From Kiritimatiella glycovorans (GTDB lineage: Bacteria > Verrucomicrobiota > Kiritimatiellia > Kiritimatiellales > Kiritimatiellaceae), in contig NZ_CP010904.1 in the NCBI RefSeq assembly GCF_001017655.1, positions 2,490,001 to 2,522,000 of the forward strand: DNA of 32,000 nucleotides, in the 5' to 3' direction. Both the position numbers and the translations under genes were made by a program. The notes below the pieces were generated by a model, which was not told where the DNA came from, ran no database searches, and saw nothing but the letters and a program-made list of their open reading frames with translations. This document shows positions 7,757 to 31,221 of the stretch, piece by piece. Positions within the stretch are counted from its first letter, which is position 1, and every line of letters begins with the position of its first letter.

Positions 7757-10279
7757 ATGTTCCAGATAATACCCATGCCGCCATATATGGGGGAAGGGAG
7801 CATGAACGCTACACAACCGGCCAGCCGCGCCGATCTCCACGTGCACAGCCGTTACTCCGATCGTCCGAGCGAGTGGTTTCTGCGACGAATCGGGGCTCCG
7901 GAGAGTTTTTCCGAGCCGCGGACGGTGTACGACCGCTGCCGTGCGGCGGGGATGGACTTTGTCACCCTCACCGACCATAACTGCATCCGCGGCGCGCTGG
8001 AGATCGCCGACCTCCCGGGCACCTTTCTTTCGAGCGAGATCACGACCTATTTCCCGGAAAACGAATGTAAGATTCACATGGTCGTATCGGGCATTACCGA
8101 GCGGGATTTCGGCGAGATCCGGGAACTGCGCGCCAACATCTACGAGCTTCGCGATTTCCTGCGGCACAAAAACATAGTGCATACGGTCGCCCACCCGCTC
8201 TTCCGGGTAAACGACAAGCTGGACGTAGAGCTGTTCGAGAAGCTGATCCTGCTGTTCGACCGTTTCGAGACGATCAACGGCTCGCGCGACCCCCGCGCCT
8301 GCGATCTGGCCGCGGCGATCCTGCGCGCTCTGACCCCCGCCGACATGGAAGCCATGGCGGACCGGCACGGCATCACGCCCGTCGGGCTGGAACCGTGGAA
8401 CAAGGTCTTCACCGGCGGCAGCGACGACCACAGCGGGCTCTATATCGCCGGCGCGCACACGGTCACGCCGCATGCGTCCAACGTCTTCGATTTTCTTCAG
8501 TTTCTGCGTGAAGGGCAGCACGAACCCGGAGGGCGCGGCGGATCGAGCATCCGGCTGGCGAACAGCCTCTACAAGATCGCCTACTCGTACTACCGCTCGC
8601 GCTTCATGCCGGACCGCGGCGACGACCACTCGGTGGTCGGCAGCGTGCTGCGCCGGCTCTCCGGCGAGGCCCCTCCGCCGCCCGTCGCGGGCGGGGGCTG
8701 GAAGCAGGTCGCCGCCGCCCGGGTTACGCGCTTCTTCACCCGCCGCCGTCGCCGGCAGCTCGGGGAGGTCGAGCGGCTTATCGTGGACGAGTTCACCCGC
8801 GTACTCGAAGACCGGTCCTCGGCGGACGGGCTGGGCGGGGGGCGGCGCCACGAGGACAATGTTCACTTCTACGCCGTCTGCGAGATCAGCCAGCAGCTCG
8901 CCTTCCGGTTTATGACCAAGTTCGCGGACAAGATCCGGCAGGGCAACCTGATCGACAGCCTGCAGTCGCTCTCCTCGCTCGGGCCCGTGCTGCTCGGACT
9001 GGCCCCCTACTTCACCGCCTTCTCCTCGCAGCACAAGGACGAAGGCTTTCTGCGCGCCGTCGCCGATCGTTTCTCCGTCACCGACCCGGCCCGCGCACAG
9101 GGAGCACGCAGGGCTTGGGTCACCGATACGTTCGCCGACGTGAACGGCGTCAGCCACACCATCCGCACCCTCGCCGATCTCGCCTGCCGGCAGGACGAAT
9201 CGCTGACCGTGGTGACCTGCCTCGCCGATCCGCCGGATGCGGCCTTCCCGGTGAAGAACTTCAAGCCGGTCGGGGCCGTCGATCTCCCGGAATACGAATC
9301 GCAGTCCGTCAGCTTTCCGCCGTTCCTCGAATGTCTCGCGTGGTTCGAAGAGCAGCGCTTCGACGAAGTCATCATCTCCACGCCCGGAACGCTGGGCCTG
9401 TGCGCCCTGTGGGCCGCGGGCCTGCTCGGCATCCCGGTGCGCGGCATCTACCACACGGACTTCCCCCAGTACGTGCGGAACATGACCGAGGACGACGCGC
9501 TGGGCGAGATCACCTGGAAGTACATGCGCTGGTTCTACGGCGGGATGACCGCTGTCTACGCGCCCACGCACCAGTACCGTCGATCCCTGATGGAGGGCGG
9601 CTTCGAGGCCGACCGGCTCAAGGTGCTGCCCCGCGGCGTCAATCTGCACGATTTCAACCCGGAACGCCGCGACCCGGATTTCTGGCGGGAATGGGACACC
9701 GGCGACCGGTTCACTTTTCTCTACGTGGGACGCGTTTCCAGGGAGAAGAATCTGGATGTCATGCTGGAGGCCTTCCGCATGCTCTGCGACGAGGGCGCGG
9801 ACGCCGACCTGGCCGTCGTCGGCGACGGCCCCTTCGCCGGGGAACTGCGCCGGCGCTACCATGACTCCCGCATCGTCTTCACCGGCACGCTCACCGGCGA
9901 CCGGCTCTCCGCCGCCTACGCGAGCGCCGACGCCTTTGTGTTCCCCAGCCGCACCGACACCTTCGGCAACGCCGTGCTCGAAGCCCACGCCTCCGGGCTG
10001 CCCGCGATCGTATCCGACTGCGGCGGGCCGCAGGAGATCGTCGGCTCGCACCACTCCGGGATCATTGTCGACACCCACACCCCGGACGCCCTCGCGCAAT
10101 CCATGCGCACCCTGCTCCGCGATCGCGAGCTTTACGAAACGCTCCGCTCCGGCGCCCTCGCCCGCGCCCGCGACAGCCGGTGGGAACAGGCCCTGAGCCT
10201 GCTACTCGAACGGGATGCAGAGAACCCTGCGAAACGGCCGGAATCGAGACCACAGCCGTCCTGCGCGAAATTCGGGTGA
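7757..10279 (+). CDS. PHP-domain phosphoesterase fused to GT4-family (GT-B) glycosyltransferase
   Basis: The N-terminus, ADLHVHSRYSDRPSEW...FVTLTDHN...HMVV, resembles a PHP metal-binding domain. The C-terminal ~380 aa is a glycosyl transferase group 1 domain (FTFLYVGRVSREKNLD, FVFPSRTDTFGNAVLEAHASGLPAIVSDCGGPQEIV, with the E-x7-E motif). Alternative starts are at 7787 and 7802; the latter is preceded by GAAGGGAG. Confidence 0.75.
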   Translation: MFQIIPMPPYMGEGSMNATQPASRADLHVHSRYSDRPSEWFLRRIGAPESFSEPRTVYDRCRAAGMDFVTLTDHNCIRGALEIADLPGTFLSSEITTYFPENECKIHMVVSGITERDFGEIRELRANIYELRDFLRHKNIVHTVAHPLFRVNDKLDVELFEKLILLFDRFETINGSRDPRACDLAAAILRALTPADMEAMADRHGITPVGLEPWNKVFTGGSDDHSGLYIAGAHTVTPHASNVFDFLQFLREGQHEPGGRGGSSIRLANSLYKIAYSYYRSRFMPDRGDDHSVVGSVLRRLSGEAPPPPVAGGGWKQVAAARVTRFFTRRRRRQLGEVERLIVDEFTRVLEDRSSADGLGGGRRHEDNVHFYAVCEISQQLAFRFMTKFADKIRQGNLIDSLQSLSSLGPVLLGLAPYFTAFSSQHKDEGFLRAVADRFSVTDPARAQGARRAWVTDTFADVNGVSHTIRTLADLACRQDESLTVVTCLADPPDAAFPVKNFKPVGAVDLPEYESQSVSFPPFLECLAWFEEQRFDEVIISTPGTLGLCALWAAGLLGIPVRGIYHTDFPQYVRNMTEDDALGEITWKYMRWFYGGMTAVYAPTHQYRRSLMEGGFEADRLKVLPRGVNLHDFNPERRDPDFWREWDTGDRFTFLYVGRVSREKNLDVMLEAFRMLCDEGADADLAVVGDGPFAGELRRRYHDSRIVFTGTLTGDRLSAAYASADAFVFPSRTDTFGNAVLEAHASGLPAIVSDCGGPQEIVGSHHSGIIVDTHTPDALAQSMRTLLRDRELYETLRSGALARARDSRWEQALSLLLERDAENPAKRPESRPQPSCAKFG

Positions 10280-10380
10280 TCGGGGAAATCGGGGGAGATC
10301 GTGGCAGTCGGGGAAAACCGTGGCAATCGGGGGGAAATCGTGGCAACGGCCCAAGGGCCTCGTGGCAGTCGGGGGGAAGG

Positions 10381-10784
10381 TCGTGGCAATCGGGGGAAAT
10401 GTCGTTTCCTCGAGCGCAGCGTTTCCTCGAGGCCGAAGGCCGTTTCCACGAGCGCAGCGTTGTCCCGAGGCCGAAGGCCGTTTCCACGTTCCCTCGAGGC
10501 CGAAGGCCGTTTCCTCGAGGCGCGTAGCGCCGTTTTCACGTTCCCCCGAGGCGCGCAGCGCCGTTGGCACGAGCGGAGAAATTCGTGGCAATCGGGGGGA
10601 AACCGTGGCAACGGCCCTTACGGGCCTCGTGGCAATCGGGGGGAAGGTCGTTGCCCCGAGCGTAGCGTTTCCCCGAGGCGCGCAGCGCCGTTTCCACGTT
10701 CCCTCGAGCGTAGCGTGGAAGATCGTGGCAATCGGGGGAGATCGTGGCAACGGCCCAAGGGCCTCGTGGCAGTCGGGAGGAGAG
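10381..10784. repeat. higher-order repeat copy 1 (404 bp)
   Basis: Manual base-by-base alignment with 10785-11188 gives 402/404 identical. The differences are at 10711 (T, versus C at 11115) and 10719 (A, versus G at 11123). Confidence 0.95.
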
Positions 10785-11188
10785 TCGTGGCAATCGGGGG
10801 AAATGTCGTTTCCTCGAGCGCAGCGTTTCCTCGAGGCCGAAGGCCGTTTCCACGAGCGCAGCGTTGTCCCGAGGCCGAAGGCCGTTTCCACGTTCCCTCG
10901 AGGCCGAAGGCCGTTTCCTCGAGGCGCGTAGCGCCGTTTTCACGTTCCCCCGAGGCGCGCAGCGCCGTTGGCACGAGCGGAGAAATTCGTGGCAATCGGG
11001 GGGAAACCGTGGCAACGGCCCTTACGGGCCTCGTGGCAATCGGGGGGAAGGTCGTTGCCCCGAGCGTAGCGTTTCCCCGAGGCGCGCAGCGCCGTTTCCA
11101 CGTTCCCTCGAGCGCAGCGTGGGAGATCGTGGCAATCGGGGGAGATCGTGGCAACGGCCCAAGGGCCTCGTGGCAGTCGGGAGGAGAG
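10785..11188. repeat. higher-order repeat copy 2 (404 bp)
   Basis: See copy 1. The period is exactly 404 bp. Confidence 0.95.
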
Positions 11189-11364
11189 TCGTGGCAATCG
11201 GGGGAAATGTCGTTTCCTCGAGCGCAGCGTTTCCTCGAGGCCGAAGGCCGTTTCCTCGAGGCCGAAGGCCGTTTCCACGAGCGCAGCGTTGTCCCGAGGC
11301 CGAAGGCCGTTTCCACGTTCCCTCGAGGCCGAAGGCCGTTTCCTCGAGGCGCGTAGCGCCGTTT
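11189..11364. repeat. higher-order repeat copy 3 (partial, rearranged)
   Basis: It starts identically to copies 1 and 2. It carries one extra 21-bp unit (TCGAGGCCGAAGGCCGTTTCC) and stays colinear to about 11364. Beyond that the same unit types appear in a different order up to about 11780. Confidence 0.85.
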
Positions 11365-11835
11365 CCACGAGCGCAGCGTTCTTCTCATCGTGGCAACGGC
11401 CCAAGGGCCTCGTGGCAGGCGGGGGGAATGTCGTTCCCTCGAGCGTAGCGTTTCCTCGAGGCCGAAGGCCGTTTCCTCGAGGCGCGTAGCGCCGTTGCCC
11501 CGAGGCGCGCAGCGCCGTTTCCACGTTCCCTCGAGCGCAGCGTGGAAGATCGTGGCAATCGGGGGAGATCGTGGCAACGGCCCTTACGGGCCTCGTGGCA
11601 ATCGGGGGAAATGTCGTTTCCTCGAGCGCAGCGTTTCCTCGAGGCGCGCAGCGCCGTTTTCACGTTCCCCCGAGGCCGAAGGCCGTTTCCCCCGAGGCGC
11701 GCAGCGCCGTTGGCACGAGCGAAGCGTTGCCACGTCCCCCTCCCCCGAGGCGCGCAGCGCCGTTTTCACGTTCCCCCTCTCCCCCCGACCCAAAAACGCT
11801 TCCCCGCCTCTACGCAATCCTTCATACTTCCGGCC

Positions 11836-13104
11836 ATGAACCTCAACGTCGGATTCGTGTCCACCCGCTTCGCCGGCACCGACGGCGTTTCGCTCGAGAG
11901 CGCCAAGTGGGCGCGTGTGCTCGAATCCTACGGCCACCGGATCTTCTGGTACGCGGGACGGATCGACCGCGAGCCGGCGGTCAGCCACTGCGTGCCCGAG
12001 GCGCACTTCGAGCACCCGGAGACGGTCTGGTTCGAGCCGAGGCTCTGGGGACACACCGAACGTGATCCGCTGGTCAGTGAACGGCTGCGCGACGCGGCCG
12101 CCTATCTCAAAGCCACGCTCTACGACTTCCGGCGACGATTCGATCTTCAGGTCCTGATCGCGGAGAACGCGCTTACCATACCCATGCACGTGCCGCTGGG
12201 TATCGCACTCACGGAATTTCTCGCCGAGACGCGCATGCCCGCCGTCGCCCACCACCACGACTTCTACTGGGAACGGATGCGCTTCTCGGTCAACTGCATC
12301 TCCGACTACCTCGATTCCGTCTTCCCTCCGCGCGACCCCCAGATCCAGCATGTCGTGATCAATCAGGCCGCGCGCGAAGAGCTTTCGTGGCGGCGCGGTC
12401 TTTCTTCGCAGCTCATCCCGAACGTCTTCGACTTCGAGCGTCCGCCCCCCGAACCCGACGAGTTCACGCAGAACGTCCGGCAGGACCTCGGGTTTTCGGA
12501 CGAGGACATCCTTATCCTGCAGCCGACGCGCATCGTCCCGCGCAAGGGCATCGAACACGCCATCCAGCTCGTCGAGCAGCTCGGAGATCCGCGCTGCAAA
12601 CTGATCATCTCGCACGAAGCCGGCGACGAGGGCTTCGAGTACCGTCATATTCTTGCCGAGATGGCGCACGAAGCGGGCGTCGACCTGCACTTCATCTCGA
12701 CCCGCATCAGCGAGATGCGTCATGTCACGGAGGAGGGCAAGAAGGTCTACACGCTCTGGGACCTCTATCCGCACGTCGAGTTCGTCACCTACCCCAGCCT
12801 CTACGAAGGGTTCGGCAACGCCTTCCTCGAAGCCGTCTATTTCAAACTCCCGATCCTGATCAACCGCTACGCGATCTTCGCGCGCGATATCGAGCCCAAG
12901 GGGTTTCGCGTCCCGACCATGGAGGGCTACCTGACGCGGCATGTACTGCGCGAAGTTAAGCGGCTTCTCGAGGATCTCGACTACCGCCGGCAGGTCGTCG
13001 AACACAACTACGCCGTCGCCCGGCGATTCTTCAGCTACGCCGAACTGCGCCGCTGTCTGCGGATGCTGATCACCAACATCACCGGCACGGAGGACGACGC
13101 ATGA
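11836..13104 (+). CDS. GT4-like (GT-B fold) glycosyltransferase
   Basis: The track ORF 11542-13104 begins inside the repeat array. The first ATG past the array is 11836 (MNLNVGFVSTRFAGTDGVSLESAKW...). The C-terminal half has a retaining GT-B signature (ILILQPTRIVPRKGIEHAI..., FVTYPSLYEGFGNAFLEAVYFKLPILINRY, with E-x7-E). The stop overlaps the next gene's ATG. Confidence 0.72.
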   Translation: MNLNVGFVSTRFAGTDGVSLESAKWARVLESYGHRIFWYAGRIDREPAVSHCVPEAHFEHPETVWFEPRLWGHTERDPLVSERLRDAAAYLKATLYDFRRRFDLQVLIAENALTIPMHVPLGIALTEFLAETRMPAVAHHHDFYWERMRFSVNCISDYLDSVFPPRDPQIQHVVINQAAREELSWRRGLSSQLIPNVFDFERPPPEPDEFTQNVRQDLGFSDEDILILQPTRIVPRKGIEHAIQLVEQLGDPRCKLIISHEAGDEGFEYRHILAEMAHEAGVDLHFISTRISEMRHVTEEGKKVYTLWDLYPHVEFVTYPSLYEGFGNAFLEAVYFKLPILINRYAIFARDIEPKGFRVPTMEGYLTRHVLREVKRLLEDLDYRRQVVEHNYAVARRFFSYAELRRCLRMLITNITGTEDDA

Positions 13105-14846
13105 TCAAGTCACTGTGCACCGCGACCATGCTGCGCATGCGGCAGCGATTCAACCGCCTCTACGGGCCGGCGCGCGCCGACCACTGTCTGGAGCGTATCG
13201 CGGCGATGGTCGGGCGTTACGGCGTGGGCTACGGCATCCCCCCGGCCTCCCGGGAGCGCTGGAGCGAACGCACGAGCGTGCTGATCACGTACGCCGACAC
13301 GGTGCGGCGCGCCGACGAAGCCCCGCTGAAAACGCTGAAGCACTTTCTCGACCGCCACCTGCGGGAAGCGATCGACACCGTACACGTCCTCCCGTTCTTT
13401 CCCTATTCCTCCGACGACGGCTTTTCGATCACCGATTACCGCGCGGTCCACCGCGATCACGGGGACTGGGGAGACCTCCGCGCCCTGGGCCGCGACTACG
13501 GACTGATGTTCGATCTGGTGCTCAACCACGTATCACGGAAGAGCGAGTGGTTCCGCGACTACCGCAACGGGGTGGCGCCCCTTCGCGAGTTCTTCATCGA
13601 GAGCGATCCGGACGCCGACCTGAGCGCCGTGGTCCGCCCGCGCAGCAAGCCCCTGCTGCACCCGGTAAAGACCGTGGACGGAGAAAAGCATGTCTGGACC
13701 ACCTTCAGCGAAGACCAGATCGACCTCGACTTCTCCAACCCCGACGTCCTGTTCGAATTCCTCGACCTCGTGCTCTTCTACCTCTCGCAGGGCGCGCGCA
13801 TCCTGCGCCTGGACGCGATCGCCTACCTCTGGAAAGTGCCCGGCACGCCCTGCATCCATCTCCCGCAGACGCACGCGACCGTCAAACTGATCCGGGACCT
13901 GCTCGACATGGTCGCACCGGAAGCGCTGATCCTCACGGAGACGAACGTCCCGCACGAGGAGAACCTCTCGTATTTCGGGGACGGCGACGAGGCGCACATG
14001 GTCTACCAGTTCAGCCTCCCGCCGCTCCTGCTCCACGCCCTCCGCCGCGAGACGGGGAAACACCTCACCGCCTGGGCGGCGGGTCTGCCCGAGCTGCCGG
14101 AGGGACAGACGTTCTTCAATTTCACGGCGTCGCACGACGGAATCGGCCTCCGCCCGCTGCAGGGGCTGCTCGACGACGCCGAACTCGCGTTGCTGGTCGA
14201 CGACATCCGCCGGCTGGGCGGCCACGTATCCACCCGCCGACGGGAGGACGGTACGGACAGCCCCTACGAACTGAACATCGCGCTCTACGACGCGCTCGGC
14301 GACCCGGACCGGCCCGACGAAGAGGCCCAGATCCGGGCCTTTCTCTGTGCGCAGACCCTCCCGCTCGCCCTGCGCGGCGTGCCGGCCCTCTATTTCCACA
14401 GCTTCACCGCCACCCGCAACTATACCGAAGGCGTCGAAGCCACCGGGCGCGCGCGCACCATCAACCGCTATCGCTGGGACGAGGACGATCTCACCGAACG
14501 GCTTGCCGACCCGCGTTCACGCACCACGCGCGTGCTCGATGAACTGCGCCGTCGCCTCAAGCTGCGCGCCCGCCAGCCCGCCTTCCACCCCGACTCGCCG
14601 CAGCGCGTCGTGGATCTGGGCCCCGAATGCTTCGCACTCGTGCGCGGTCCCTTCGGGAAGGGCCCGCCCGTCGCCGCCCTGTCCAACCTCACCGCCCGGA
14701 CGATTACCGTGCGGCTCGATCCCGCCGTCCCGGAACTCAACGGCCCCCGGCCCTGCGTCGATCTGCTCAGCGGAACCCGCTTCAGCGGCAGTGCCAAAGA
14801 AATCGAACTCGCCCCGCGCCAGACCGTCTGGCTCGCCCGCAGGTAA
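13101..14846 (+). CDS. GH13_18 sucrose-phosphorylase-family glycoside phosphorylase (exact glucoside specificity unknown)
   Basis: Family signatures are present: VHVLPFFPYSSDDGFSITDY, MFDLVLNHVS, ARILRLDAIAYLWK (nucleophile Asp), LILTETNVPHEEN (acid/base Glu) and FTASHDGIGLRP. The N-terminal helical extension is typical of the non-sucrose members of this subfamily. Confidence 0.85.
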   Translation: MIKSLCTATMLRMRQRFNRLYGPARADHCLERIAAMVGRYGVGYGIPPASRERWSERTSVLITYADTVRRADEAPLKTLKHFLDRHLREAIDTVHVLPFFPYSSDDGFSITDYRAVHRDHGDWGDLRALGRDYGLMFDLVLNHVSRKSEWFRDYRNGVAPLREFFIESDPDADLSAVVRPRSKPLLHPVKTVDGEKHVWTTFSEDQIDLDFSNPDVLFEFLDLVLFYLSQGARILRLDAIAYLWKVPGTPCIHLPQTHATVKLIRDLLDMVAPEALILTETNVPHEENLSYFGDGDEAHMVYQFSLPPLLLHALRRETGKHLTAWAAGLPELPEGQTFFNFTASHDGIGLRPLQGLLDDAELALLVDDIRRLGGHVSTRRREDGTDSPYELNIALYDALGDPDRPDEEAQIRAFLCAQTLPLALRGVPALYFHSFTATRNYTEGVEATGRARTINRYRWDEDDLTERLADPRSRTTRVLDELRRRLKLRARQPAFHPDSPQRVVDLGPECFALVRGPFGKGPPVAALSNLTARTITVRLDPAVPELNGPRPCVDLLSGTRFSGSAKEIELAPRQTVWLARR

Positions 14847-14908: not shown

Positions 14909-17900
14909 TCACTCCGGTTCGATCTGCTCGATTCCGGCGGTTTCCTTCATCATTTCCTCGATCGTCTGCGGCCCCGTCGCGGGAGCGGATCCCGGGGCTT
15001 CGCGTGCGCGGAAAAAGAGGTTGCGCGTATCGGTCACGTGCGCGGGCACCCGGGCGGACAGATCACCCGGATGGACGCGAAACCGCACGCGGCGTGTGGC
15101 GAGCCCTTCTGCGGCGACCGTCAGCACGGCTTCGGCATCTTCCCCGCCGTCGTGGACCCGGCTGCGGAGGATGACCTGTGCACAGCCGTGAAAGGCGCGG
15201 CAACGCGGAATCTGGTCGGAGGCGTGGCGTGTCGGGTCGCCGTTGCCGACGCCGATCAGCTCGATCGGTCCCGAGGTCTCGAAAAACAACTCGTGATCGG
15301 CTCGCGGCACCACCGTTCCGGCCTCATCGAAAATCCGCAGCTCGACGACCACGGCATCCCGGCCATCGCCCGCAAGATTGAGTTTTGAAGCGCGCGCATT
15401 GATCTTTGTCGCCTCCCCCGCCGTCGATACGCGCTCGCGCCGCACTTCTTCTCCATCCCGGTACCCGACCGCCTCCAGCACGCCGGGGGCGTAGGCGACC
15501 TCCCATTCGGGATAACCGTACCGCGGCACAGCTCTCCGGCCGCAGGACTCGCCGTTGACGAAAAGTTCGACCTCTTCGGAATTCGAGTAGGCGCAAACGC
15601 GAATCGGCTCCCCTTCGCGGCCCGGCCACGTCCAGTGCGGCAGCAGATGCAGCACGGGTTCGTCATCCCACCAGGCTTTATACAGGTAAAAGGCGTCCTT
15701 GGGGAATCCGCACAGATCCATCACGCCGAACGAAGAGCTGACATTCGGCCAGCCGAACGGGGTCGGTTCGCCCCGGTAATCGAGTCCGGTCCAGATGAAC
15801 GTACCGCCGGCAAACGGATGGCTCATGGCAAACTCGATCACGCGCTGCGAGGAGTCGCCCCAGGCCACCCCCTTGCGGTCGTACGAGGCCAGAAGCCCGC
15901 GCTCGCGGTCGTCGGCATAGACGCCGCGCGTCGCTACGGCGCTGCCGCTCTCCGCGGAAAGCACCGGTTGCCCGTCACGTTCGTACGCGGCCATCTGATC
16001 GAAGAAATAGTTGAATCCGGCGATATCCACGAGCCGGAACGACGGCCAGTCGAACCCGCCGTTGTTGCGCGCTACGATCACCGGCCTATACGGATCGTGG
16101 CGGTCGATCTCGAACATCAGCTCCTTCAGAATCCGCTGCGGAAAGAGGTCCGTTCCGAAAGGCCGGTTTTCCTCGTTGCCGACGCACCAGAGCAGGACGC
16201 TCGGGTGATTGCGCAGGGTGCGGACCAGCACGGCCAGATCGTGGCGATACTGCGAAGCCGAGCTGAGAATGCGGTTTTCCGCGTACAGGAACATCCCCAT
16301 CTCGTCGGCCAGTTCGGCGACATCCGGCGGCGGGTAGTGATGGATTCGCACGGCGTTACAGCCCATCGACTGCAGCCGTTCGAGCCGATAGCGCCACACT
16401 GCGCGGTCGACGGCGATTCCGATCCCGGCGTGATCCTGGTGCAGGCAGGCGCCTTTGAGTTTGACCGGGCGGCCGTTGAGAAAACACCCGCGCTCGGCGT
16501 CGAACCGGATATCGCGCACCCCGAATCGTGTACGCACCTTATCCAGCACACGCCCCTTCGCATCGTGGATCGAGGTGATCAGCGTATAGCGCCGCGGGTC
16601 GCGCAGATCCCAGAGCACCGGAGCATGTAATTCCGTTTTCGCGACTTTCTCCGCGTCTCCCCCCGCCGGCACCACAACGGCGCCCTCCACGATTCCGGCT
16701 TCGGCACCGGCGGGATCGAGAATGCGCCAGCGCACGGCGACCTCCGCGTCCTCATGCCGCCGGCTGGCGACTTCGGTGCGGAGGTCCAGGGCCCAGGTAT
16801 CGTCTTCCTCAGGCGTCGCATGGACGAAAATCCCGCCCATCGGGATGTGGACCGGATCGGTTTCGATCAGGTGCACGTCGCGGTAGATTCCGCCGCCCTC
16901 GTACCACCATCCCTCGTTTACCGACGCATCAGCGCGCACGAGCACGGCATTGGTCCCGCCGAAGAAGACGAAATCGCTGATGTCGACCTCGAAGGGCGTG
17001 TAGCCGCTGAATTCCTCATGCACGCGAAAGCCGTTGACGAAGATCTGGGCGTTGCGGTAGACGCCGTCGAAGCGAAGTGCGATCCGGCGTCCTTCAGCCT
17101 CCGCCGGAAGAACCCACGTCCGGCGGTAATAGCCCACTCCGTAAGGGAGCCCGCCGCGGACGAAATTGTGTTCGGCTCCGATCCTGCCCTCCACGACGAA
17201 ATCGTGCGGGAGGTCCAGTGCGCGCCAGTCCGAATCGTCGTAGCCGACATCCGCGGAGGTCCCCTTGAACCGGCGGGCTTTGACGTAACGGCTGAGCACA
17301 TCCGTTTCCGGACCCTCGCCGTAGGTGAACGTCCATCCGCGATTCAGGAGGCGTTCCCGGCGGGGCGCTGACCCCGAAACATCGGGCGACGGCTTCGGTA
17401 CGGGCGTGCACCCCATGACCGGCACCGACTCGCCCTGTTCCGGATCGAAGGCGGGATCGGGCGTCGGCATCTGTGCGCCGACCTCTTCACGCCACGCCGC
17501 GAGGCGGCGATGGAGCGCTTCGGCCTTCTCCGCGTGCGAGCGCGCCAGGTTGTGTTCCTCGCCCGGATCGTTCTCGAGGTCGTAGAGCTCGAGCGCGTTG
17601 TCCTCCAGATACTCAATCAGCTTCCACCGCCCGCGAAGAATGACGCTGTAGGGGGGGCTGTAGGGGTGATAGTGCGGGAAGTGCCAGTGCAGGGATTCAC
17701 GTGCAAGCCCGCCGGTCCCGCGCAGGAGGGGGGTCAGATCCAAGCCGTCGATTTCATGGCCCTTCGCATCCTCCAGACCCGCCAGGCCGAGCAGGGTCGG
17801 ATAGAGATCGTGGGTAATGACGGGTTCGTCGCAGACGGTCCCGGGACGAACCGTCCCCGGCGCGCGAAATATGAGCGGGATGCGCAGGCCGCCCTCGTAG

Positions 17901-18820
17901 GCGGTCGCCTTGCCGGCGCGCAACGGGGCGTTGCTCGTGGCGAGATGCAGACCGCCGTTGTCGGAGGTGAAGACGACCACGGTTTTTTCCGCGAGGCCCA
18001 GCTCACCGAGCTTCGCCAGCACGCGCGCAAGACTTTCGTCCACGCTCTCGATCATCGCGGCATAACGGGCGGTCCGGTCGCCCGCGCGCTGATCGAGACG
18101 CGGCTTGGCGTAGTACTTCCTCTCCAGTTCCGGTTTACCCTGCAGGGGAGCATGGACGGCGAAATGCGACAGATGGAGGAAGAACGGCTCCTGCGCGTGA
18201 GCGTCCATGAACGCCAGGGCCTCGTCGGTGAGGCGATCGGTCAGGTATTCACCCGCCGGCCCGTCGGGCAGCATCGGATTCCGGTAAGGCGAGAAATACG
18301 TGTAGGGACGTCCGCCGCCGCCCGGCTCCCAGTACCCGCCGACGTTGACCTCGAACCCATGGTGATCGGCGGTCCGCGCAGCGCCGTCGCCGAGGTGCCA
18401 CTTGCCGATGTGGCCGGTCGCGTAGCCGTGCGCATGAAAGACCTCGGCCAGGGTGGTTTCGTCGAGCTTGAGAAAAGGCGTCCAATCGGGTTCGCGGAGC
18501 GGAAGCGCGCGCCCGGCATTCCAGCCGGGAATCCAGTTGGTGAGGTGGAGGCGCGCAGGGTTCCGGCCCGTCATCAGCGCTGCACGGGTGGGACTGCACA
18601 TCGCCGCCGCCGCATAGGCGCGGGTAAACCGCACCCCCTCTTCCGCGAGGCGGTCAATGGTCGGGGTCTCGTAATAGCGGCTCCCGTACGCACCGGTATC
18701 CCTCCATCCGAGATCGTCGACGACAAACAGGACCATGTTCGGCCGCTCCGGCCTGGGCGCGGCATGACACTGAAGTGCAAGCCAGGCGCCGGCTAGGGTA
18801 GCGATCATGCGTCTGTTCAT
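14909..18820 (-). CDS. secreted S1 sulfatase fused to GH2 glycoside hydrolase (single ORF, ~1303 aa)
   Basis: The start is set at ATG 18820: GGAG lies upstream and a signal peptide MNRRMIATLAGAWLALQCHAA follows. The track ORF extends to 19465 only as an antisense shadow of the malic enzyme gene. Sulfatase motifs: VVDDLGW and the formylglycine motif CSPTRAALMTGR. A Pro-rich linker spans about 17366-17473. The GH2 part includes LNRGWTFTYG, WRALDLPHDF, GVGYYRRTW...LRFDGVYRNAQIFVNG, NHPSVLLWCVGNEE and GGTFIWTGLDYRGEP. No stop codon lies between the two halves. Confidence 0.85.
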   Translation of the reverse strand: MNRRMIATLAGAWLALQCHAAPRPERPNMVLFVVDDLGWRDTGAYGSRYYETPTIDRLAEEGVRFTRAYAAAAMCSPTRAALMTGRNPARLHLTNWIPGWNAGRALPLREPDWTPFLKLDETTLAEVFHAHGYATGHIGKWHLGDGAARTADHHGFEVNVGGYWEPGGGGRPYTYFSPYRNPMLPDGPAGEYLTDRLTDEALAFMDAHAQEPFFLHLSHFAVHAPLQGKPELERKYYAKPRLDQRAGDRTARYAAMIESVDESLARVLAKLGELGLAEKTVVVFTSDNGGLHLATSNAPLRAGKATAYEGGLRIPLIFRAPGTVRPGTVCDEPVITHDLYPTLLGLAGLEDAKGHEIDGLDLTPLLRGTGGLARESLHWHFPHYHPYSPPYSVILRGRWKLIEYLEDNALELYDLENDPGEEHNLARSHAEKAEALHRRLAAWREEVGAQMPTPDPAFDPEQGESVPVMGCTPVPKPSPDVSGSAPRRERLLNRGWTFTYGEGPETDVLSRYVKARRFKGTSADVGYDDSDWRALDLPHDFVVEGRIGAEHNFVRGGLPYGVGYYRRTWVLPAEAEGRRIALRFDGVYRNAQIFVNGFRVHEEFSGYTPFEVDISDFVFFGGTNAVLVRADASVNEGWWYEGGGIYRDVHLIETDPVHIPMGGIFVHATPEEDDTWALDLRTEVASRRHEDAEVAVRWRILDPAGAEAGIVEGAVVVPAGGDAEKVAKTELHAPVLWDLRDPRRYTLITSIHDAKGRVLDKVRTRFGVRDIRFDAERGCFLNGRPVKLKGACLHQDHAGIGIAVDRAVWRYRLERLQSMGCNAVRIHHYPPPDVAELADEMGMFLYAENRILSSASQYRHDLAVLVRTLRNHPSVLLWCVGNEENRPFGTDLFPQRILKELMFEIDRHDPYRPVIVARNNGGFDWPSFRLVDIAGFNYFFDQMAAYERDGQPVLSAESGSAVATRGVYADDRERGLLASYDRKGVAWGDSSQRVIEFAMSHPFAGGTFIWTGLDYRGEPTPFGWPNVSSSFGVMDLCGFPKDAFYLYKAWWDDEPVLHLLPHWTWPGREGEPIRVCAYSNSEEVELFVNGESCGRRAVPRYGYPEWEVAYAPGVLEAVGYRDGEEVRRERVSTAGEATKINARASKLNLAGDGRDAVVVELRIFDEAGTVVPRADHELFFETSGPIELIGVGNGDPTRHASDQIPRCRAFHGCAQVILRSRVHDGGEDAEAVLTVAAEGLATRRVRFRVHPGDLSARVPAHVTDTRNLFFRAREAPGSAPATGPQTIEEMMKETAGIEQIEPE

Positions 18821-18952
18821 AGATGCCCTCCGTTTCATGTAAGCTGATGAAGCCTCTGTACCACTGAGATCCGAATTTCGCAGGAGGCATTTGTCAGCAC
18901 AAGCCAATCCGTATAGGCTGAGTGTTTTAATTGTGATTTGACTGGAGTCATC

Positions 18953-20290
18953 ATGAAGCAGGATCAGAACCGTTGCGACAGCCTGGAGTACCATTCCGAA
19001 CCGCGGCCCGGGAAGCTCGAGGTACGTTCGACCAAACCGTGCGCGACCCAGCGGGACCTCTCGCTCGCGTACAGCCCCCATGTGGCGTGGCCCTGCCGCG
19101 AGATCGAGGCCGACCCCGAAGCCGTCTACCGCTATACCGGCAAGGCGAATACGGTGGCCGTGGTCAGCGACGGCACGGCCGTCCTCGGCCTCGGCCGCAT
19201 CGGCCCGCATGCGGGTCTGCCCGTCATGGAGGGCAAGGCCGTCCTCTTCAAGCGGTTCGCCGATATCGACGCGCTGCCGATCTGTCTCTCGGGCGTGCAC
19301 CGCGGCGACCGCACCGATCCCGACCGGCTGATTGAGACGGTCGAACGGCTGGAGCCGACCTTCGGCGGGATCAACCTCGAGGACATCGGCGCGCCGGCCT
19401 GCTTCGAGGTCGAACGGCAGCTCAAAAAGACGATGCCGATCCCCGTTTTCCACGACGACCAGCACGGCACGGCGATCATCTGCATGGCGGGCATCTTTAA
19501 CAGCCTAGAACTCACGGGCCGCAGAATCGAGGAGACTCGCTTCGTCGTGAACGGCGCGGGCGCCGCGGGCGTGGCCTGCATCGATCTCTGCATTTCCGCG
19601 GGCGCGCGCCGCGAAAACGTCGTCCTCTGCGACTCGAAGGGTGTGATCTACCGGGGACGCGAAGAAGGAATGACGCCGGAGAAGGAACGGCTGGCGGCGG
19701 AAACGGACGCGCGCACGCTGGCGGATGCGTTGAAGGACGCCGACATTTTCATGGGCCTCTCCGTCGCGGACTGCGTCGACCGGGACATGATCCGGTCGAT
19801 GAACGACGAGCCGATCGTCTTCGCGATGGCCAACCCGGACCCCGAGATCACGCCGGACGCGGCCTGGGAGGCCGGGGCCGCGGTGGTCGGCACCGGGCGC
19901 TCGGACTACCCGAACCAGGTGAACAACGTACTGGGCTTCCCGGGCATCTTCCGCGGCGCACTCGACGTCCGCGCCTCGGCGATCAATGAGGAGATGAAGA
20001 GGGCGGCGGCCCGCGCCCTCGCGGATCTGGCCCGCGCGGAAGTCCCCGGAGACGTCCGCGAAGAACTCGCGGCCGTCTACCCGGAAGACGCGGCCGCCGG
20101 TATGTTCGACGGCGACGCGCCGCTCGGCAGCCGCTACGTGATCCCCAAACCCTTCGATCCGCGCGTCGTGCCCGCCGTCGCACGCGGCGTCGCCGAAGCC
20201 GCCGTCCGCAGCGGCGTCGCACGCCTCCCCGCGCTCGACTGGGACGCCTACGAGCGCGAAGTCACCGCCCGGCTTGCGGGCAGGGGATAA
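18953..20290 (+). CDS. NAD(P)-dependent malic enzyme (short form, no PTA domain)
   Basis: [74 protein letters not shown], the Rossmann motif [11 protein letters not shown], and [10 protein letters not shown]. The ATG at 18953 is preceded by GGAG. The track start at 18938 is a TTG. Confidence 0.93.
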
Positions 20291-28958: not shown

Positions 28959-29090
28959 GAAGAACGGAGGGATGCGTGCTCTCCGAGCGCGCCGCAAATT
29001 CGAAATCTATTTTTCGACCAGTAGAGTAGAGAGGGAGCCACGGGATGAGAGGCTTAGAGCCAATGACCGCGGACTGCCCTCCCCCTCGTC

Positions 29091-29123
29091 GAACCGGACA
29101 TGCGGATTTCCCGCATCCGGCTC
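29091..29123 (-). ncRNA. group II intron domain V (catalytic hairpin)
   Basis: The reverse complement reads GAGCCGGAUGCGGGAAAUCCGCAUGUCCGGUUC. It has the canonical AGC triad, a GAAA-type loop and a 2-nt bulge geometry. It lies 26 nt downstream of the IEP stop. Confidence 0.9.
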
Positions 29124-29149
29124 TCGCGGAAGGCATTTGTTGGATGGTT

Positions 29150-30481
29150 TCACAGGTAGATCAGTCCCATGTTCTTGAAATGCGCGTAGTAGCTCATACC
29201 TTCAGGGGGCCAGTAGCCGCGCTGACTGCGTCGTTTCGCATGTCGCGTGAGACGCTGTCGCACGTATCCATTGACGTGGCGGAATGCCACACGCGGATAA
29301 CCCAGCGAAAAGTAGTTTGCCCATCCTCGCATTTGCATGTTGAGTTCGTCGATCACCGTCGGCAGAGGTTTGAAGCATTGTTCCGGTCCGGTCATCTCCC
29401 GAAGCCGATCACGTTCCCGTTGGAGCGCTTTCCGCGACGGTGTCAGGTTCCAGTACCGGCACGGGCGTCCGCCGAGGTCCCGGTCATAGCGGAAGCTATA
29501 TCCGAGAAAGTCCAGCGTCTGCCCCGGTTCCCGAGCATCGAGTATCCGGGTTTTCTCCCGGTTAATCTTCAGCCCGAGCCACCCTTCTATCTTGGCTTCG
29601 ATGAACGCTTCGAGTTGCGGACCGATATACCGGGCGAGGACCACGAAGTCATCGGCGTACCTCACCAGTTTGGCCTTCGCCCACCGTGCCGGTCCGTCTT
29701 TGCGGTAAAACACCGCATCGAACCAGTGCAGATAGATGTTGGCCAGAAGCGGCGAAATGACCCCGCCTTGCGGCGTGCCCTTGTCGTTGCGCTTCACGGT
29801 CGGCGGTTTGCCTTTCTCCGTTTCCTCTACCGGCGCTTTCAGCCACATTCGGATCAGCTTCAGCACGGACCGGTCGGTGACACGCATCTGCACACAAGCG
29901 ATGAGCTTGTCGTGTGGAATACTGTCGAAATAGCCGGCCAGATCCGCATCATACACCGCACACCGCCCTTGCCGGAGCTCCTGTCCAATCGCCTTCAACG
30001 CATCATGCGCCGAGCGCTCAGGCCGGAACCCATGGGAGCAGTCCTTGAAGTCAGCTTCAAAGATCGGTTCCAATATCAGAACCGTAGCGGTCTGCACGAC
30101 CCGATCCCGCACCGAGGGTATTCCCAAGGGACGGAGTTTCCCGTTCACCTTCTGGATGTAGACCCGCCGCACTTTTCCAGCACGGTAGGTTCGATCCTTC
30201 AGGCTGCGTTCAATATCCGCCAAGAAGGCTTCGACTCCTCCTTGACTCTGTTCGATGTCCTCGATGGTCACACCATCGGGGCCTTCTTTTCCGCCGTTAG
30301 CGCGTACATGTTTCCATGCCGCCAGCAGAGTGTCGGCCCGGCCAATGTGGCCATAGAGACTGTAGAAGCGAAACCGCTTCTCCTGTTTGGCCTTCTGACT
30401 CAGCTTCTGTCTCAGCGCGGCGAGTTTCGGCGGCAAGAGTCTGTCGTCAATGCGATAGTACTCCGTCGCTTCTTCTGTCAT
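29150..30481 (-). CDS. group II intron reverse transcriptase/maturase (no endonuclease domain)
   Basis: RT domains 0-7 including [51 protein letters not shown] and [10 protein letters not shown] maturase X domain follows ([10 protein letters not shown]). The protein ends right after X with no HNH/En region. I prefer the ATG at 30481; the track uses TTG 30493. Confidence 0.95.
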
Positions 30482-31221
30482 AGGTTTCACCAATCAGTCC
30501 CCCGCGCTTCTTACTCAGCTCGTCTTCCGCCGAGACCCCTTCGCTCCACGGGCATTACCCCGCTTCATCACTACTACGAGCCTCTCCGACTCCCGCACGC
30601 GATCACCCCCGAGGTTATTGATTCCCCCACGGGCTTGTCGGCTTACCCGACATCACGGCGGGCCTCCCAAGTTCCTGGCTGTTCTTTCTGCGCGCGCCGT
30701 CTCTTGTTACCCCGGAGGGCCTTGCCGGTGCATATGACCGTTCCTTCCCGACAAGTGCTGGCTTCATCATATCCGATAGGCTGGCCGCCCTCGGCTTGTG
30801 TAACGAGGCTGAATCAAGTTCGCTTTCGCTACGGCTCGCGCGTTCGCCTTCCCAGGCTTCGACGCCGGGGTTACCCCCGATCACCGCTGGGTCGGCTACA
30901 TATGCAACGATCAATTCACACGACTGACTCCTTTCATTCAGTTAGAAACAGCCAAGCTTTGCTTGGCGCACCGGATGGCACCGATAGCACGGATATGTTT
31001 AAAATCACGATCGGGATCGGACTCGGGCTTCACCACAGGTCACAGAACACATGATTCGCGCTCGTACGCGCACTCGGAACGCCGCAGGCGCGATCCTTTT
31101 TCCAGTCCAGGAAATCGACTACGAGCACCGCTTCGCTGAGTACGAGTACGATTATGATATTTAGCCGGGGGTCCCGATGTTGAACTCAGGAAGACCTCGG
31201 TGAGAGGAACGGGAGACGCGC

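What the first reader, a model, noticed from the sequence alone, without database searches (positions are those of the whole stretch)
10272..11780. 1.5 kb array of abutting GNA-triloop mini-hairpin units fills the whole spacer between two glycosyltransferase genes
Seen directly in the sequence:
- The 1,556-bp gap between the PHP::GT4 stop (10279) and the next GT start (11836) is not ordinary intergenic DNA. It is tiled end to end by roughly 70 short units (estimated from array length divided by unit size, not counted).
- Most units share the layout GTTTCC (or GTTGCC/GTTGGC) + N + CGAG + a GC mini-palindrome. The palindrome core is always C-GNA-G: GGCC-GAA-GGCC, GGCGC-GCA-GCGCC, GGCGC-GTA-GCGCC, GC-GCA-GC, GC-GTA-GC, and one exact GCGAAGC near 11717.
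- Variation between units concentrates on the N of the GNA loop and on stem length. This is what structure-preserving evolution would look like.
- A second unit class, CGTGGCA-ATCGGGGG-RAA, has a core TCGGGGGAA that is the exact reverse complement of the TTCCCCCGA found in class 1 units. Long-range pairing is therefore possible in addition to the local hairpins.

Established knowledge: d(GCGAAGC)-type GNA-loop mini-hairpins are known for unusually high thermal stability.

Inference: if the array is co-transcribed with the flanking same-strand genes, the RNA would be a chain of dozens of stable hairpins. If extruded in DNA, it would be a strong replication or transcription obstacle. It resembles a hypertrophied REP/BIME-like element, but I know of no described family with this unit structure or cluster size. 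No RAYT/IS200-like transposase lies nearby. Possible roles are operon decoupling or mRNA stabilisation, a protein-binding platform, a source of processed small RNAs, or a selfish expansion.
Basis: partly seen in the sequence, partly recalled or inferred. Interest (0 to 1): 0.85.

Follow-up and report, generated by a model that had tools for sequence, protein, structure and literature searches.

The report
Kiritimatiella mosaic mini-hairpin repeat array
The 1.5 kb between two sugar-transferase genes of Kiritimatiella glycovorans is a real, non-coding array of about 70 twenty-base units, most carrying a tiny GC hairpin, and it is one of at least seven such arrays in this genome: a REP/BIME-like repeat family with an unusual unit and very large clusters.

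Summary
Window 10272-11797 is tiled by about 70 short units (81 CGT-anchored pieces). There are 39 perfect C(GNA)G triloop hairpins on the + strand and none on the - strand, plus 7 tetraloop hairpins in a second unit class.

That second class is the first class in inverted orientation, so the array is a mosaic of seven forward and seven inverted blocks. A 404-bp higher-order block is repeated 2.3 times at 99% identity, and one 21-nt unit was recently duplicated, so the array grows by tandem duplication.

The organism is Kiritimatiella glycovorans. Its genome was closed with PacBio at 265x, so an assembly artefact is unlikely.

The array is not unique. A HMMER scan of 1.84 billion proteins with a spurious ORF of the array returned seven proteins, all from K. 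glycovorans. Six are by-product ORFs of other arrays, at four or more other loci. No other organism gave a hit.

There is no Rfam match, no terminator or promoter consensus, no GTAG/CGTC tag, and no Y1 transposase in the window.

Best reading: a lineage-specific REP/BIME-like repeat family built on DNA mini-hairpins and amplified in tandem. Any function is unproven. It is a new variant of a known kind, of moderate interest.

The parts
7757..10279 (+). Upstream gene: PHP-like N-terminal region fused to a GT4 glycosyltransferase (GenBank AKJ65359, annotated start about 7802)
   Evidence: Pfam Glycos_transf_1 and Glyco_transf_4. 100% identical to K. glycovorans P0001. Carries a C-terminal extension of about 22 aa that homologues lack.
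10272..11797 (.). The whole mosaic array: about 70 units, 46 mini-hairpins
10280..10402 (-). Inverted (class 2) block 1: CGTGGCAATCGGGGGAAAT-type units plus one GGCC-CAAG-GGCC hairpin unit
   Evidence: About 80% complementary to class 1 units.
10403..10583 (+). Forward (class 1) block 1: CGTTTCC-N-CGAG + C(GNA)G hairpin units of 17, 21 and 23 nt
10584..10648 (-). Inverted block 2, with the hairpin GGCCC-TTAC-GGGCC (GTAA on the - strand)
10649..10723 (+). Forward block 2
10724..10806 (-). Inverted block 3
10807..10987 (+). Forward block 3
10988..11052 (-). Inverted block 4
11053..11127 (+). Forward block 4
11128..11210 (-). Inverted block 5
11211..11388 (+). Forward block 5. It contains the duplicated 21-nt unit (11228-11248 and 11249-11269).
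11389..11431 (-). Inverted block 6
11432..11550 (+). Forward block 6
11551..11614 (-). Inverted block 7
11615..11768 (+). Forward block 7. It includes the single GCGAAGC at 11718-11724.
11769..11797 (+). C-rich terminal tail, ...CCCCCTCTCCCCCCGACCCAAAAAC. A near-identical tail ends the array of L21SP4_02319.
   Evidence: The window frame reads ...SPRPKN; P0123 ends ...SPAPKN then a stop codon.
10337..11255 (+). Higher-order repeat: 404-bp block, 2.3 copies, 99% identical. It continues at offset 425 after the extra 21-nt unit.
11836..13104 (+). Downstream gene: glycosyltransferase resembling mannosylglucosylglycerate synthase
   Evidence: NCBIfam NF041101, E = 1.8e-68, 231 bits, below the 640-bit cut-off. 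Pfam Glycos_transf_1.
13101..14846 (+). Next gene: GH13 enzyme resembling sucrose phosphorylase. Its start overlaps the GT stop by 4 nt.

Best explanation
The spacer is one array of a Kiritimatiella glycovorans-specific family of non-coding, REP/BIME-like mosaic repeats.

The unit. It is about 20 nt: a linear motif (CGTTTCC-N-CGAG) followed by a GC-only mini-hairpin capped by a G...A loop. The loops are C-GNA-G triloops in forward units, and GTAA or CTTG tetraloops on the opposite strand in inverted units.

The layout. Units sit head to tail in blocks, and blocks of opposite orientation alternate.

How arrays grow (shown). They grow by tandem duplication of single units and of whole 404-bp blocks, through unequal recombination or replication slippage.

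What drives this (inferred). These loop types form exceptionally stable hairpins in single-stranded DNA but not in RNA. The hairpins would form on single strands at the replication fork or during repair, resist SSB and nucleases, and so favour slipped intermediates and expansion. Alternatively they serve as recognition sites for an unidentified single-strand DNA enzyme of the HUH/RAYT type that seeds new loci.

Cost or benefit (inferred). The family is most likely selfish or neutral. Its local consequence here is a 1.5-kb structured insert that separates two same-strand glycosyltransferase genes. If transcribed, it would hinder read-through or protect upstream mRNA 3' ends, as REP/BIME elements do.
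For: Shown:
- Anatomy, unit counts and strand asymmetry: 39 GNA hairpins on the + strand against 0 on the - strand.
- Inverted relation of the two classes.
- Recent duplication of a 404-bp block (5 mismatches in 515 positions) and of one 21-nt unit.
- Multi-locus family. All 7 hits among 1.84e9 proteins are K. glycovorans: L21SP4_02129 (this array), _00612, _01247, _02319, _02323, _02326 and WP_160300773.
- Every one of those products carries the diagnostic peptides of the same hairpin types and of both unit classes.
- Non-coding. Unit lengths of 17, 19, 20, 21, 22, 23 and 24 nt and the 404-bp period mostly do not keep a reading frame. All six frames are almost stop-free: 1-4 stops against 11.6 expected. 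No Pfam family passes its cut-off.
- Genuine sequence: PacBio HGAP at 265x plus an Illumina check (PMC5148204).
- Folds beyond shuffled controls on both strands.

From the literature:
- GCGNAGC and GCGNNAGC DNA mini-hairpins are extraordinarily stable, their RNA versions are much weaker, and they bind SSB poorly (PMC13037366).
- REP families made mostly of tandem clusters, with stems as short as 5 bp, and REP-rich Verrucomicrobia are already known (PMC3733652).

Inferred:
- Overlaying two reading frames of the same unit type in P0121 gives GGCCCC-TGC-GGGGCC. That is a C(GCA)G triloop on the - strand of an inverted unit. In P0121, P0123 and P0124 the same method gives GGCCC-TCGC-GGGCC, which reads GCGA on the - strand.
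Against: - No transposase of the Y1/RAYT type lies in the window, and the rest of the genome could not be read.
- The unit lacks the GTAG or CGTC tag that defines the REP superfamilies.
- 15 of the 39 hairpins have only 2-bp stems.
- Head-to-tail tandem order is the rare arrangement for REPs (PMC3733652).
- No dispersed single copies were seen in the other 12 intergenic gaps of the window.
- Nearest-neighbour folding of single units is not better than shuffles. The special stability therefore rests on published measurements, not on a calculation made here.
- Nothing here shows hairpin extrusion, slippage bias or any effect on transcription.
Confidence: 0.6

Rival explanations
1. A functional cis-acting or trans-acting RNA. 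The array is co-transcribed with the flanking genes, or from its own promoter. It would act as an mRNA stabiliser or decoupler, as a protein sponge (many GGA/GGGGAA motifs between hairpins), or as a source of processed small RNAs.
For: - Both flanking genes are on the same strand.
- No terminator consensus interrupts the array.
- The RNA fold is well below shuffles.
- REP/BIME elements are known to stabilise upstream mRNA. This is established knowledge; the relevant papers appear in the reference list seen.
Against: - There is no Rfam match, even at E <= 1, and no promoter consensus.
- C(GNA)G triloops on 2-5-bp stems are weak in RNA but exceptionally stable in DNA (PMC13037366).
- Units occur in both orientations, so no single transcript carries all hairpins in their favoured strand sense.
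- Unit number changes by recent duplication, which is not what a defined RNA would show.
Confidence: 0.15
2. A DNA-level functional platform. The arrays would be binding or structural sites that organise the chromosome, pause replication or transcription, or recruit primase or another single-strand DNA enzyme. They might alternatively promote recombination of adjacent genes, as proposed for Neisseria NIME arrays.
For: - The motif and hairpin are regularly spaced at about 20 nt, with a strict strand asymmetry.
- There are several arrays per genome. Three lie within eight genes of each other (_02319, _02323, _02326), so they flank small gene groups.
- Mini-hairpins are used by primases and by N4 RNA polymerase on single-stranded DNA (PMC13037366).
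- The NIME precedent (PMC1797815).
Against: - No candidate protein is known, and there is no conservation outside one species.
- Synteny of the flanking genes is not conserved in relatives, and their loci carry no array.
- Rapid copy-number change suggests weak constraint.
Confidence: 0.12
3. A protein-coding gene. GenBank annotates L21SP4_02129 as a hypothetical protein here, and UniProt labels one sister ORF as a collagen repeat.
For: - A 338-351-aa ORF lies on the + strand.
- There is a weak Collagen Pfam hit for P0125, at 19.2 bits, below the 27.2-bit cut-off.
Against: - ORFs of at least 140 aa are open in five of the six frames, and all six frames are stop-poor.
- Unit lengths and the 404-bp period break the reading frame.
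- The six annotated sister ORFs resemble one another only through frame-shifted copies of the same DNA units.
- Only one of the seven products carries a RefSeq WP_ accession.
- There are no homologues outside this genome.
Confidence: 0.02
4. An assembly or sequencing artefact.
For: Mini-hairpins are known to disturb sequencing chemistry (PMC13037366; the review has a section on sequencing, glimpsed). Repeats can also be mis-assembled.
Against: - The genome was closed from more than 10-kb PacBio libraries at 265x and checked with Illumina reads (PMC5148204).
- Seven separate arrays with diverged units exist in the same assembly.
Confidence: 0.02

Closest known systems
REP sequences and BIME clusters (E. 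coli PU/REP; GTAG- and CGTC-tagged REP superfamilies, Di Nocera et al. 2013, PMC3733652)
   Same: - Short GC-rich extragenic palindromes with a conserved unpaired motif next to the stem.
- Found in both orientations and combined into mosaics between convergent or same-strand genes.
- Present at many loci of one genome and lineage-specific in sequence.
- Clusters grow by tandem reiteration.
   Different: - Units are 17-24 nt, against 20-40 nt for REPs.
- Stems are 2-5 bp, against 5-13 bp.
- Loops are strictly GNA.
- The flanking motif is CGAG / CGTT, not GTAG or CGTC.
- Units run head to tail in blocks, where REPs mostly form head-to-head or tail-to-tail dimers.
- One cluster holds about 70 units, far more than typical REP clusters.
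- No singletons were seen nearby, and no RAYT gene was found in the 32 kb.
Clustered 5-bp-stem GTAG-1 REPs of Thauera sp. MZ1T, whose arrays flank exopolysaccharide genes (PMC3733652)
   Same: - Very short stems.
- A family made mostly of tandem arrays.
- Arrays sit next to sugar-polymer or glycosyltransferase genes.
- First noticed as tandem repeats.
   Different: They carry the GTAG tag and belong to a superfamily shared by many Proteobacteria. The sequences are unrelated.
Neisserial intergenic mosaic elements (dRS3 + RS arrays; PMC1797815)
   Same: - Genus-restricted kilobase-scale intergenic arrays built from a 20-bp palindromic element.
- Several arrays per genome.
- Arrays vary in repeat number.
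- A role is proposed in recombination, not in coding or RNA.
   Different: NIME arrays have 50-150-bp RS spacers between dRS3 elements, and dRS3 is a known phage integration site. Here the units abut with no spacers.
DNA mini-hairpins d(GCGNAGC) / d(GCGNNAGC) (Hirao and co-workers; review PMC13037366)
   Same: The identical core: a C-G closing pair and a sheared G-A loop. GCGAAGC, GCGCAGC and GCGTAGC occur literally in the array.
   Different: Until now they were known as isolated motifs at phage single-strand origins, plasmid ssi sites and N4 promoters. They were not known as the repeating unit of chromosomal arrays.
CRISPR arrays
   Same: Regularly spaced short palindromic repeats at several loci.
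   Different: There are no unique spacers, units abut, both orientations occur in one array, and no cas genes lie in the window.

Membership tests
REP (GTAG/CGTC superfamilies) | A conserved GTAG or CGTC tetranucleotide, unpaired, directly flanking the stem | tested here: not met
   The stem is flanked by CGAG on the 5' side and CGTT on the 3' side in all forward units. GTAG occurs only as part of the loop plus stem in the 8 GTA-loop hairpins.
REP (GTAG/CGTC superfamilies) | Palindrome with a stem of 5-13 bp and a loop of 2-20 nt | tested here: inconclusive
   12 hairpins have 5-bp stems, 12 have 4-bp stems and 15 have 2-bp stems, all with 3-nt loops. The 7 inverted units have 4-5-bp stems with tetraloops.
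REP (GTAG/CGTC superfamilies) | Tens to thousands of copies dispersed in extragenic space of one genome | tested here: inconclusive
   At least 7 arrays at 5 or more loci, totalling at least 5.6 kb. No single units occur in the other 12 intergenic gaps of the window. The rest of the genome was not readable.
REP (GTAG/CGTC superfamilies) | An associated RAYT (Y1/HUH transposase) gene, usually flanked by REPs | not testable with these tools
   None is present among the window ORFs. K. glycovorans DNA outside the window could not be fetched.
BIME / mosaic element | Palindromic units in both orientations combined with conserved linker motifs into clusters | tested here: met
   Seven forward and seven inverted blocks alternate. 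Inverted units are about 80% complementary to forward units.
CRISPR | Repeats of 24-48 bp separated by unique spacers of similar length | tested here: not met
   Units abut, and no unique sequence lies between them.
Protein-coding repeat protein (annotated L21SP4_02129) | One reading frame maintained, repeat period a multiple of 3, homologues or domains | tested here: not met
   Most periods (17, 19, 20, 22, 23 and 404 nt) are not multiples of 3. All six frames are open. No Pfam family passes its cut-off. The only hits are sister arrays in the same genome.
Any Rfam RNA family | Covariance-model match | tested here: not met
   No hit at gathering score. At E <= 1 there was only a chance mir-638 hit, at 26.6 of the required 87 bits.
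Intrinsic terminator cluster | GC stem of at least 5 bp followed by a T-run | tested here: not met
   0 sites in 9800-12300, against 3.2 expected in shuffles.

The most novel reading that the evidence does not exclude
The arrays are the footprint of an undescribed single-strand-DNA repeat system. Its unit is the exceptionally stable DNA mini-hairpin C(GNA)G plus a CGAG/CGTT guide motif. An enzyme not yet linked to repeats (a divergent HUH/Y1 nuclease, a primase or a repair nuclease) would write the units head to tail. Alternatively, the host uses the arrays as programmed fork or transcription barriers that insulate small gene groups. On this reading it is a repeat class separate from the GTAG and CGTC REP superfamilies.
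Probability: 0.2. Interest if true: 0.75.

Novelty: new variant of a known kind. Interest (0 to 1): 0.55.

Why it matters
If the reading is right, K. glycovorans carries a third kind of tagged palindromic repeat, beside the GTAG and CGTC REPs. Its hairpin is the textbook DNA mini-hairpin, so this would be a natural case where that physical-chemistry curiosity is amplified dozens of times in a chromosome.

It gives a clean system for two questions: whether hairpin stability on single-stranded DNA drives tandem expansion in bacteria, as it does for triplet repeats in eukaryotes, and which enzyme seeds such arrays.

There is also a practical point. Six GenBank 'hypothetical proteins', one of which UniProt labels as collagen-like, and one RefSeq protein (P0127, about 75 N-terminal residues) are translation by-products of these arrays and should be re-annotated.

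Tried and rejected
- **Exact scan of 185,579 species genomes** for two adjacent forward units. It gave 13 loci. The three verrucomicrobial ones I read are two motif copies with no further units, two inside homologous sequence of two MAGs (apparently coding) and one between ORFs. The motif count shows two copies in most of the others and short 17- or 21-nt tandem runs in L002, L006 and L009. None of them was Kiritimatiella. The source genome is evidently not readable there, so this says nothing about the rest of its genome.
- **The same scan of metagenomes**. It gave 27 loci, mostly chance matches. L034, L035 and L020/L026 have small arrays of GTTTCC-N-CGAG-containing units without the GC hairpins. 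I treat these as unrelated, or at best uncertain.
- **Viral contigs**: 0 hits.
- **Fetching the K. glycovorans loci of the window genes and of a sister array** failed four times.
- **Word-indexed protein search with concatenated + and - strand array ORFs** found only one sister ORF and missed even the identical one. The full HMMER scan was needed.
- **Orthologous loci in Tichowtungia and the closest MAG**. The PHP-GT4 gene has different neighbours and no array, so no comparative test of the array was possible.
- **Locus tags in the literature**: none found. The genome paper does not mention the repeats, and its supplements are not held.
- **Motif readings checked by eye and rejected**: sigma-54 promoter (TGGCA/TTGC spacing is wrong), G-quadruplex (G-runs are about 20 nt apart), and spacer-less CRISPR-like repeat.

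Full report
**1. What is in the sequence**

The upstream ORF (7757-10279, +) is a PHP-like region fused to a GT4 glycosyltransferase. The next real gene starts at ATG 11836.

Positions 10272-11797 of the 1,556-bp gap are repeats. Cutting at CGT[TG] anchors gives 81 pieces. Eleven are 8-nt half-units (CGTTTCCA / CGTTTTCA) and a few are degenerate, which leaves about 70 full units of 17-24 nt.

*Forward (class 1) units* read CGTT[T/G/C]CC-N-CGAG followed by one of three perfect GC-only hairpins:
- GC-GNA-GC (17-nt unit)
- GGCC-GAA-GGCC (21-nt unit)
- GGCGC-GNA-GCGCC (23-nt unit)

I count 39 C(GNA)G hairpins on the + strand and none on the - strand. The loop N is A 13 times, C 18 times, T 8 times and never G.

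*Class 2 units* are CGTGGCAATCGGGGGAAAT and CGTGGCAAC-GGCC(C)-CAAG/TTAC-(G)GGCC-T. Seven of them carry a hairpin.

The motifs are hugely over-represented and, within the 32 kb, confined to this spacer.

**2. The two classes are one unit in two orientations**

A minus-strand self-comparison aligns class 2 hairpin units with class 1 units at about 80%. Read on the - strand, a class 2 unit is CGTTGCCACGAG-GCCC-GTAA-GGGC-CGTTGCCACGA. That is the class 1 layout with a G...A-capped (GTAA) or CTTG tetraloop.

The array is therefore a mosaic of seven forward and seven inverted blocks (see parts). This explains the long-range pairing in the predicted folds. It also explains why both strands fold far better than dinucleotide shuffles:

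| Molecule | + strand z | - strand z |
|---|---|---|
| RNA | -5.7 | -4.2 |
| DNA | -6.7 | -7.7 |

Single units are not significant with nearest-neighbour parameters. Their special stability is a literature fact, not something computed here.

**3. The array is dynamic**

A 404-bp block of about 20 units spans 10337-11255 in 2.3 copies, with 5 mismatches in 515 compared positions. One of those mismatches is a GTA to GCA loop change.

In the third copy a single 21-nt unit is duplicated (11228 and 11249). Identity then continues at offset 425. Growth by tandem duplication at both unit and block level is thus shown directly.

**4. It is not coding, not a known RNA and not an artefact**

- All six frames are nearly stop-free: 1-4 stops per 503 codons against 11.6 expected.
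- Most unit lengths, and the 404-bp period, are not multiples of three.
- No Pfam family passes its cut-off.
- Rfam gives nothing, even at E <= 1.
- No sigma-70 promoter or intrinsic-terminator consensus is present.
- The organism is Kiritimatiella glycovorans L21-Fru-AB: the flanking GT is 100% identical to AKJ65359.
- Its genome was closed from more than 10-kb PacBio libraries at 265x and checked with Illumina reads (PMC5148204).

**5. It is a family**

I used the array's spurious 351-aa + strand ORF as a probe against 1.84 billion representative proteins. There were seven hits, all from K. glycovorans:

| Protein | Locus or accession | Length (aa) | Note |
|---|---|---|---|
| P0122 | L21SP4_02129 | 338 | this array |
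| P0121 | L21SP4_01247 | 422 | sister array |
| P0123 | L21SP4_02319 | 344 | sister array |
| P0124 | L21SP4_02323 | 257 | sister array |
| P0126 | L21SP4_02326 | 222 | sister array |
| P0125 | L21SP4_00612 | 218 | sister array |
| P0127 | WP_160300773 | 130 | about 75 aa are repeat-derived |

- P0121 was checked directly and is not encoded in the window: its best tblastn identity is 35-37%. The other five are only 50-74% identical to the probe.
- All seven contain the diagnostic peptides of the three forward hairpin types and of class 2 units. Examples are EAEGR / RPKAV / GRRP, GAQRR / GAKRR / RRAAP / RREAP, RAKR / RAQR / SEA / SAA, SWQSG and GNGP.GPRG.
- The GGCC stem always carries GAA. The other two stems carry GAA, GCA or GTA.

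Overlaying two reading frames of the same unit type fixes the DNA of two inverted hairpins in sister arrays. One is GGCCCC-TGC-GGGGCC, which gives GCA on the - strand. The other is GGCCC-TCGC-GGGCC, which gives GCGA on the - strand. This is my inference.

The arrays also share polarity. The ORFs start in class 2 sequence and end in class 1 sequence. Array _02319 ends with almost the same C-rich ...CCCAAAAAC tail as this one.

At least 5.6 kb of the 2.95-Mb genome is therefore made of this family. Three arrays lie within eight genes of each other.

No other organism gave a hit. Exact scans for adjacent forward units in species genomes, metagenomes and viral contigs gave only chance matches, small unrelated arrays, or nothing.

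Two caveats apply. The nearest available relatives share only about 63% identity in the flanking protein, and their loci are not syntenic. 'Species-specific' therefore cannot be separated from 'genus-specific'. Short-read metagenome assemblies would also tend to lose such arrays.

**6. Mechanism**

Published work shows three things (PMC13037366):
- d(GCGNAGC) and d(GCGNNAGC) mini-hairpins melt around 80 degrees C.
- Their RNA counterparts are much weaker. r(GCGAAAGC) melts at 39 degrees C.
- They resist nucleases and bind SSB poorly.

All 39 GNA loops of the forward units, and three of the seven hairpins of inverted units here (GTAA on the - strand), are of these G...A-capped types. The four CAAG/CTTG hairpins are not. 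All forward units place the stable version on the same strand.

I therefore favour a single-strand-DNA reading. Hairpins that form at forks or during repair stabilise slipped intermediates and bias the arrays towards expansion. Alternatively, or in addition, they are the recognition structure of a single-strand DNA nuclease that seeds new loci, as RAYTs do for REPs (PMC3733652).

What is shown is tandem growth, presence at several loci, and strand asymmetry. What is inferred is the hairpin-driven mechanism and any enzyme.

The + strand of the window has a negative cumulative GC skew, and the locus lies at about 88% of the gene order counted from dnaA. That would put the GNA hairpins on the nascent lagging strand, which is the configuration that favours expansion in triplet-repeat models. 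This is weak inference only.

**7. Comparison with known families**

It works like a REP/BIME or NIME-type mosaic. It fails the defining REP tag test, since there is no GTAG or CGTC. Its stems are shorter, its loops are strictly GNA, its order is head to tail, and its clusters are far larger than usual.

Precedents for short-stem, mostly clustered REPs (Thauera) and for REP-rich Verrucomicrobia (Opitutus terrae) exist. I therefore file it as a new variant of a known kind, not as a REP member and not as something categorically new.

**8. Verdict**

Interest is moderate (0.55). It would be higher if the genome-wide census shows only long arrays and a new enzyme.

Noticed in passing
window 29021-31054 (- strand): A complete group II intron. 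Rfam finds domains D1-D4 at 30699-30931 and the D5-D6 core at 29021-29125. The reverse-transcriptase/maturase ORF lies at 29150-30493.
   Followed up: partly
window 10210-10279: The PHP-GT4 protein carries a C-terminal extension of about 22 aa (ERDAENPAKRPESRPQPSCAKFG) that all homologues lack; they end at ...SRWE.AL.LL. Its stop codon sits inside the first repeat bases, so the array may have displaced the original gene end.
   Followed up: partly
window 11836-14846: The downstream pair looks like a compatible-solute module of this halophile: a mannosylglucosylglycerate-synthase-like GT and a sucrose-phosphorylase-like GH13 with overlapping stop and start. Both score below the NCBIfam cut-offs.
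   Followed up: partly
GenBank proteins AKJ65360, AKJ64495, AKJ65545, AKJ65549, AKJ65552, AKJ63881; RefSeq WP_160300773: These annotated 'hypothetical proteins' are translation by-products of the repeat arrays. UniProt labels AKJ63881 'Collagen triple helix repeat'. Only the last one carries a RefSeq accession.
   Followed up: yes
L034 1-640 (metagenome contig Ga0123353_10645389): A high-GC contig with three different abutting tandem arrays upstream of a gene: about 17-nt GTTTCCCCGAG-ACCTCG units, ATTATTC heptamers, and CCGCCAAATCGAATTTCC-type units (about 24 nt). It shares only the GTTTCCCCGAG motif with the window array, so any relationship is unclear.
   Followed up: partly
L020 10320-10420 and L026 140-240 (metagenome contigs OHOR01000982 / OHDV01000690): Four tandem 21-nt GCGTTTCCGCGAGCAGAGAAA units sit directly upstream of a divergently oriented gene start. 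The sequence is identical in the two samples.
   Followed up: no
window 14909-19465 (-) versus 18938-20290 (+): The 1,518-aa sulfatase + GH2 fusion ORF overlaps the malic-enzyme ORF by 528 nt. Its sulfatase domain begins only at residue 242, so the true start is probably well downstream of the first GTG.
   Followed up: no
window 10272-11797: 21 of the 35 CTCGAG (XhoI-type) sites in the window, and 13 of the 15 CCTCGAGG octamer palindromes, lie in the array. If the strain has a restriction-modification system for this site, the arrays would be dense targets.
   Followed up: no
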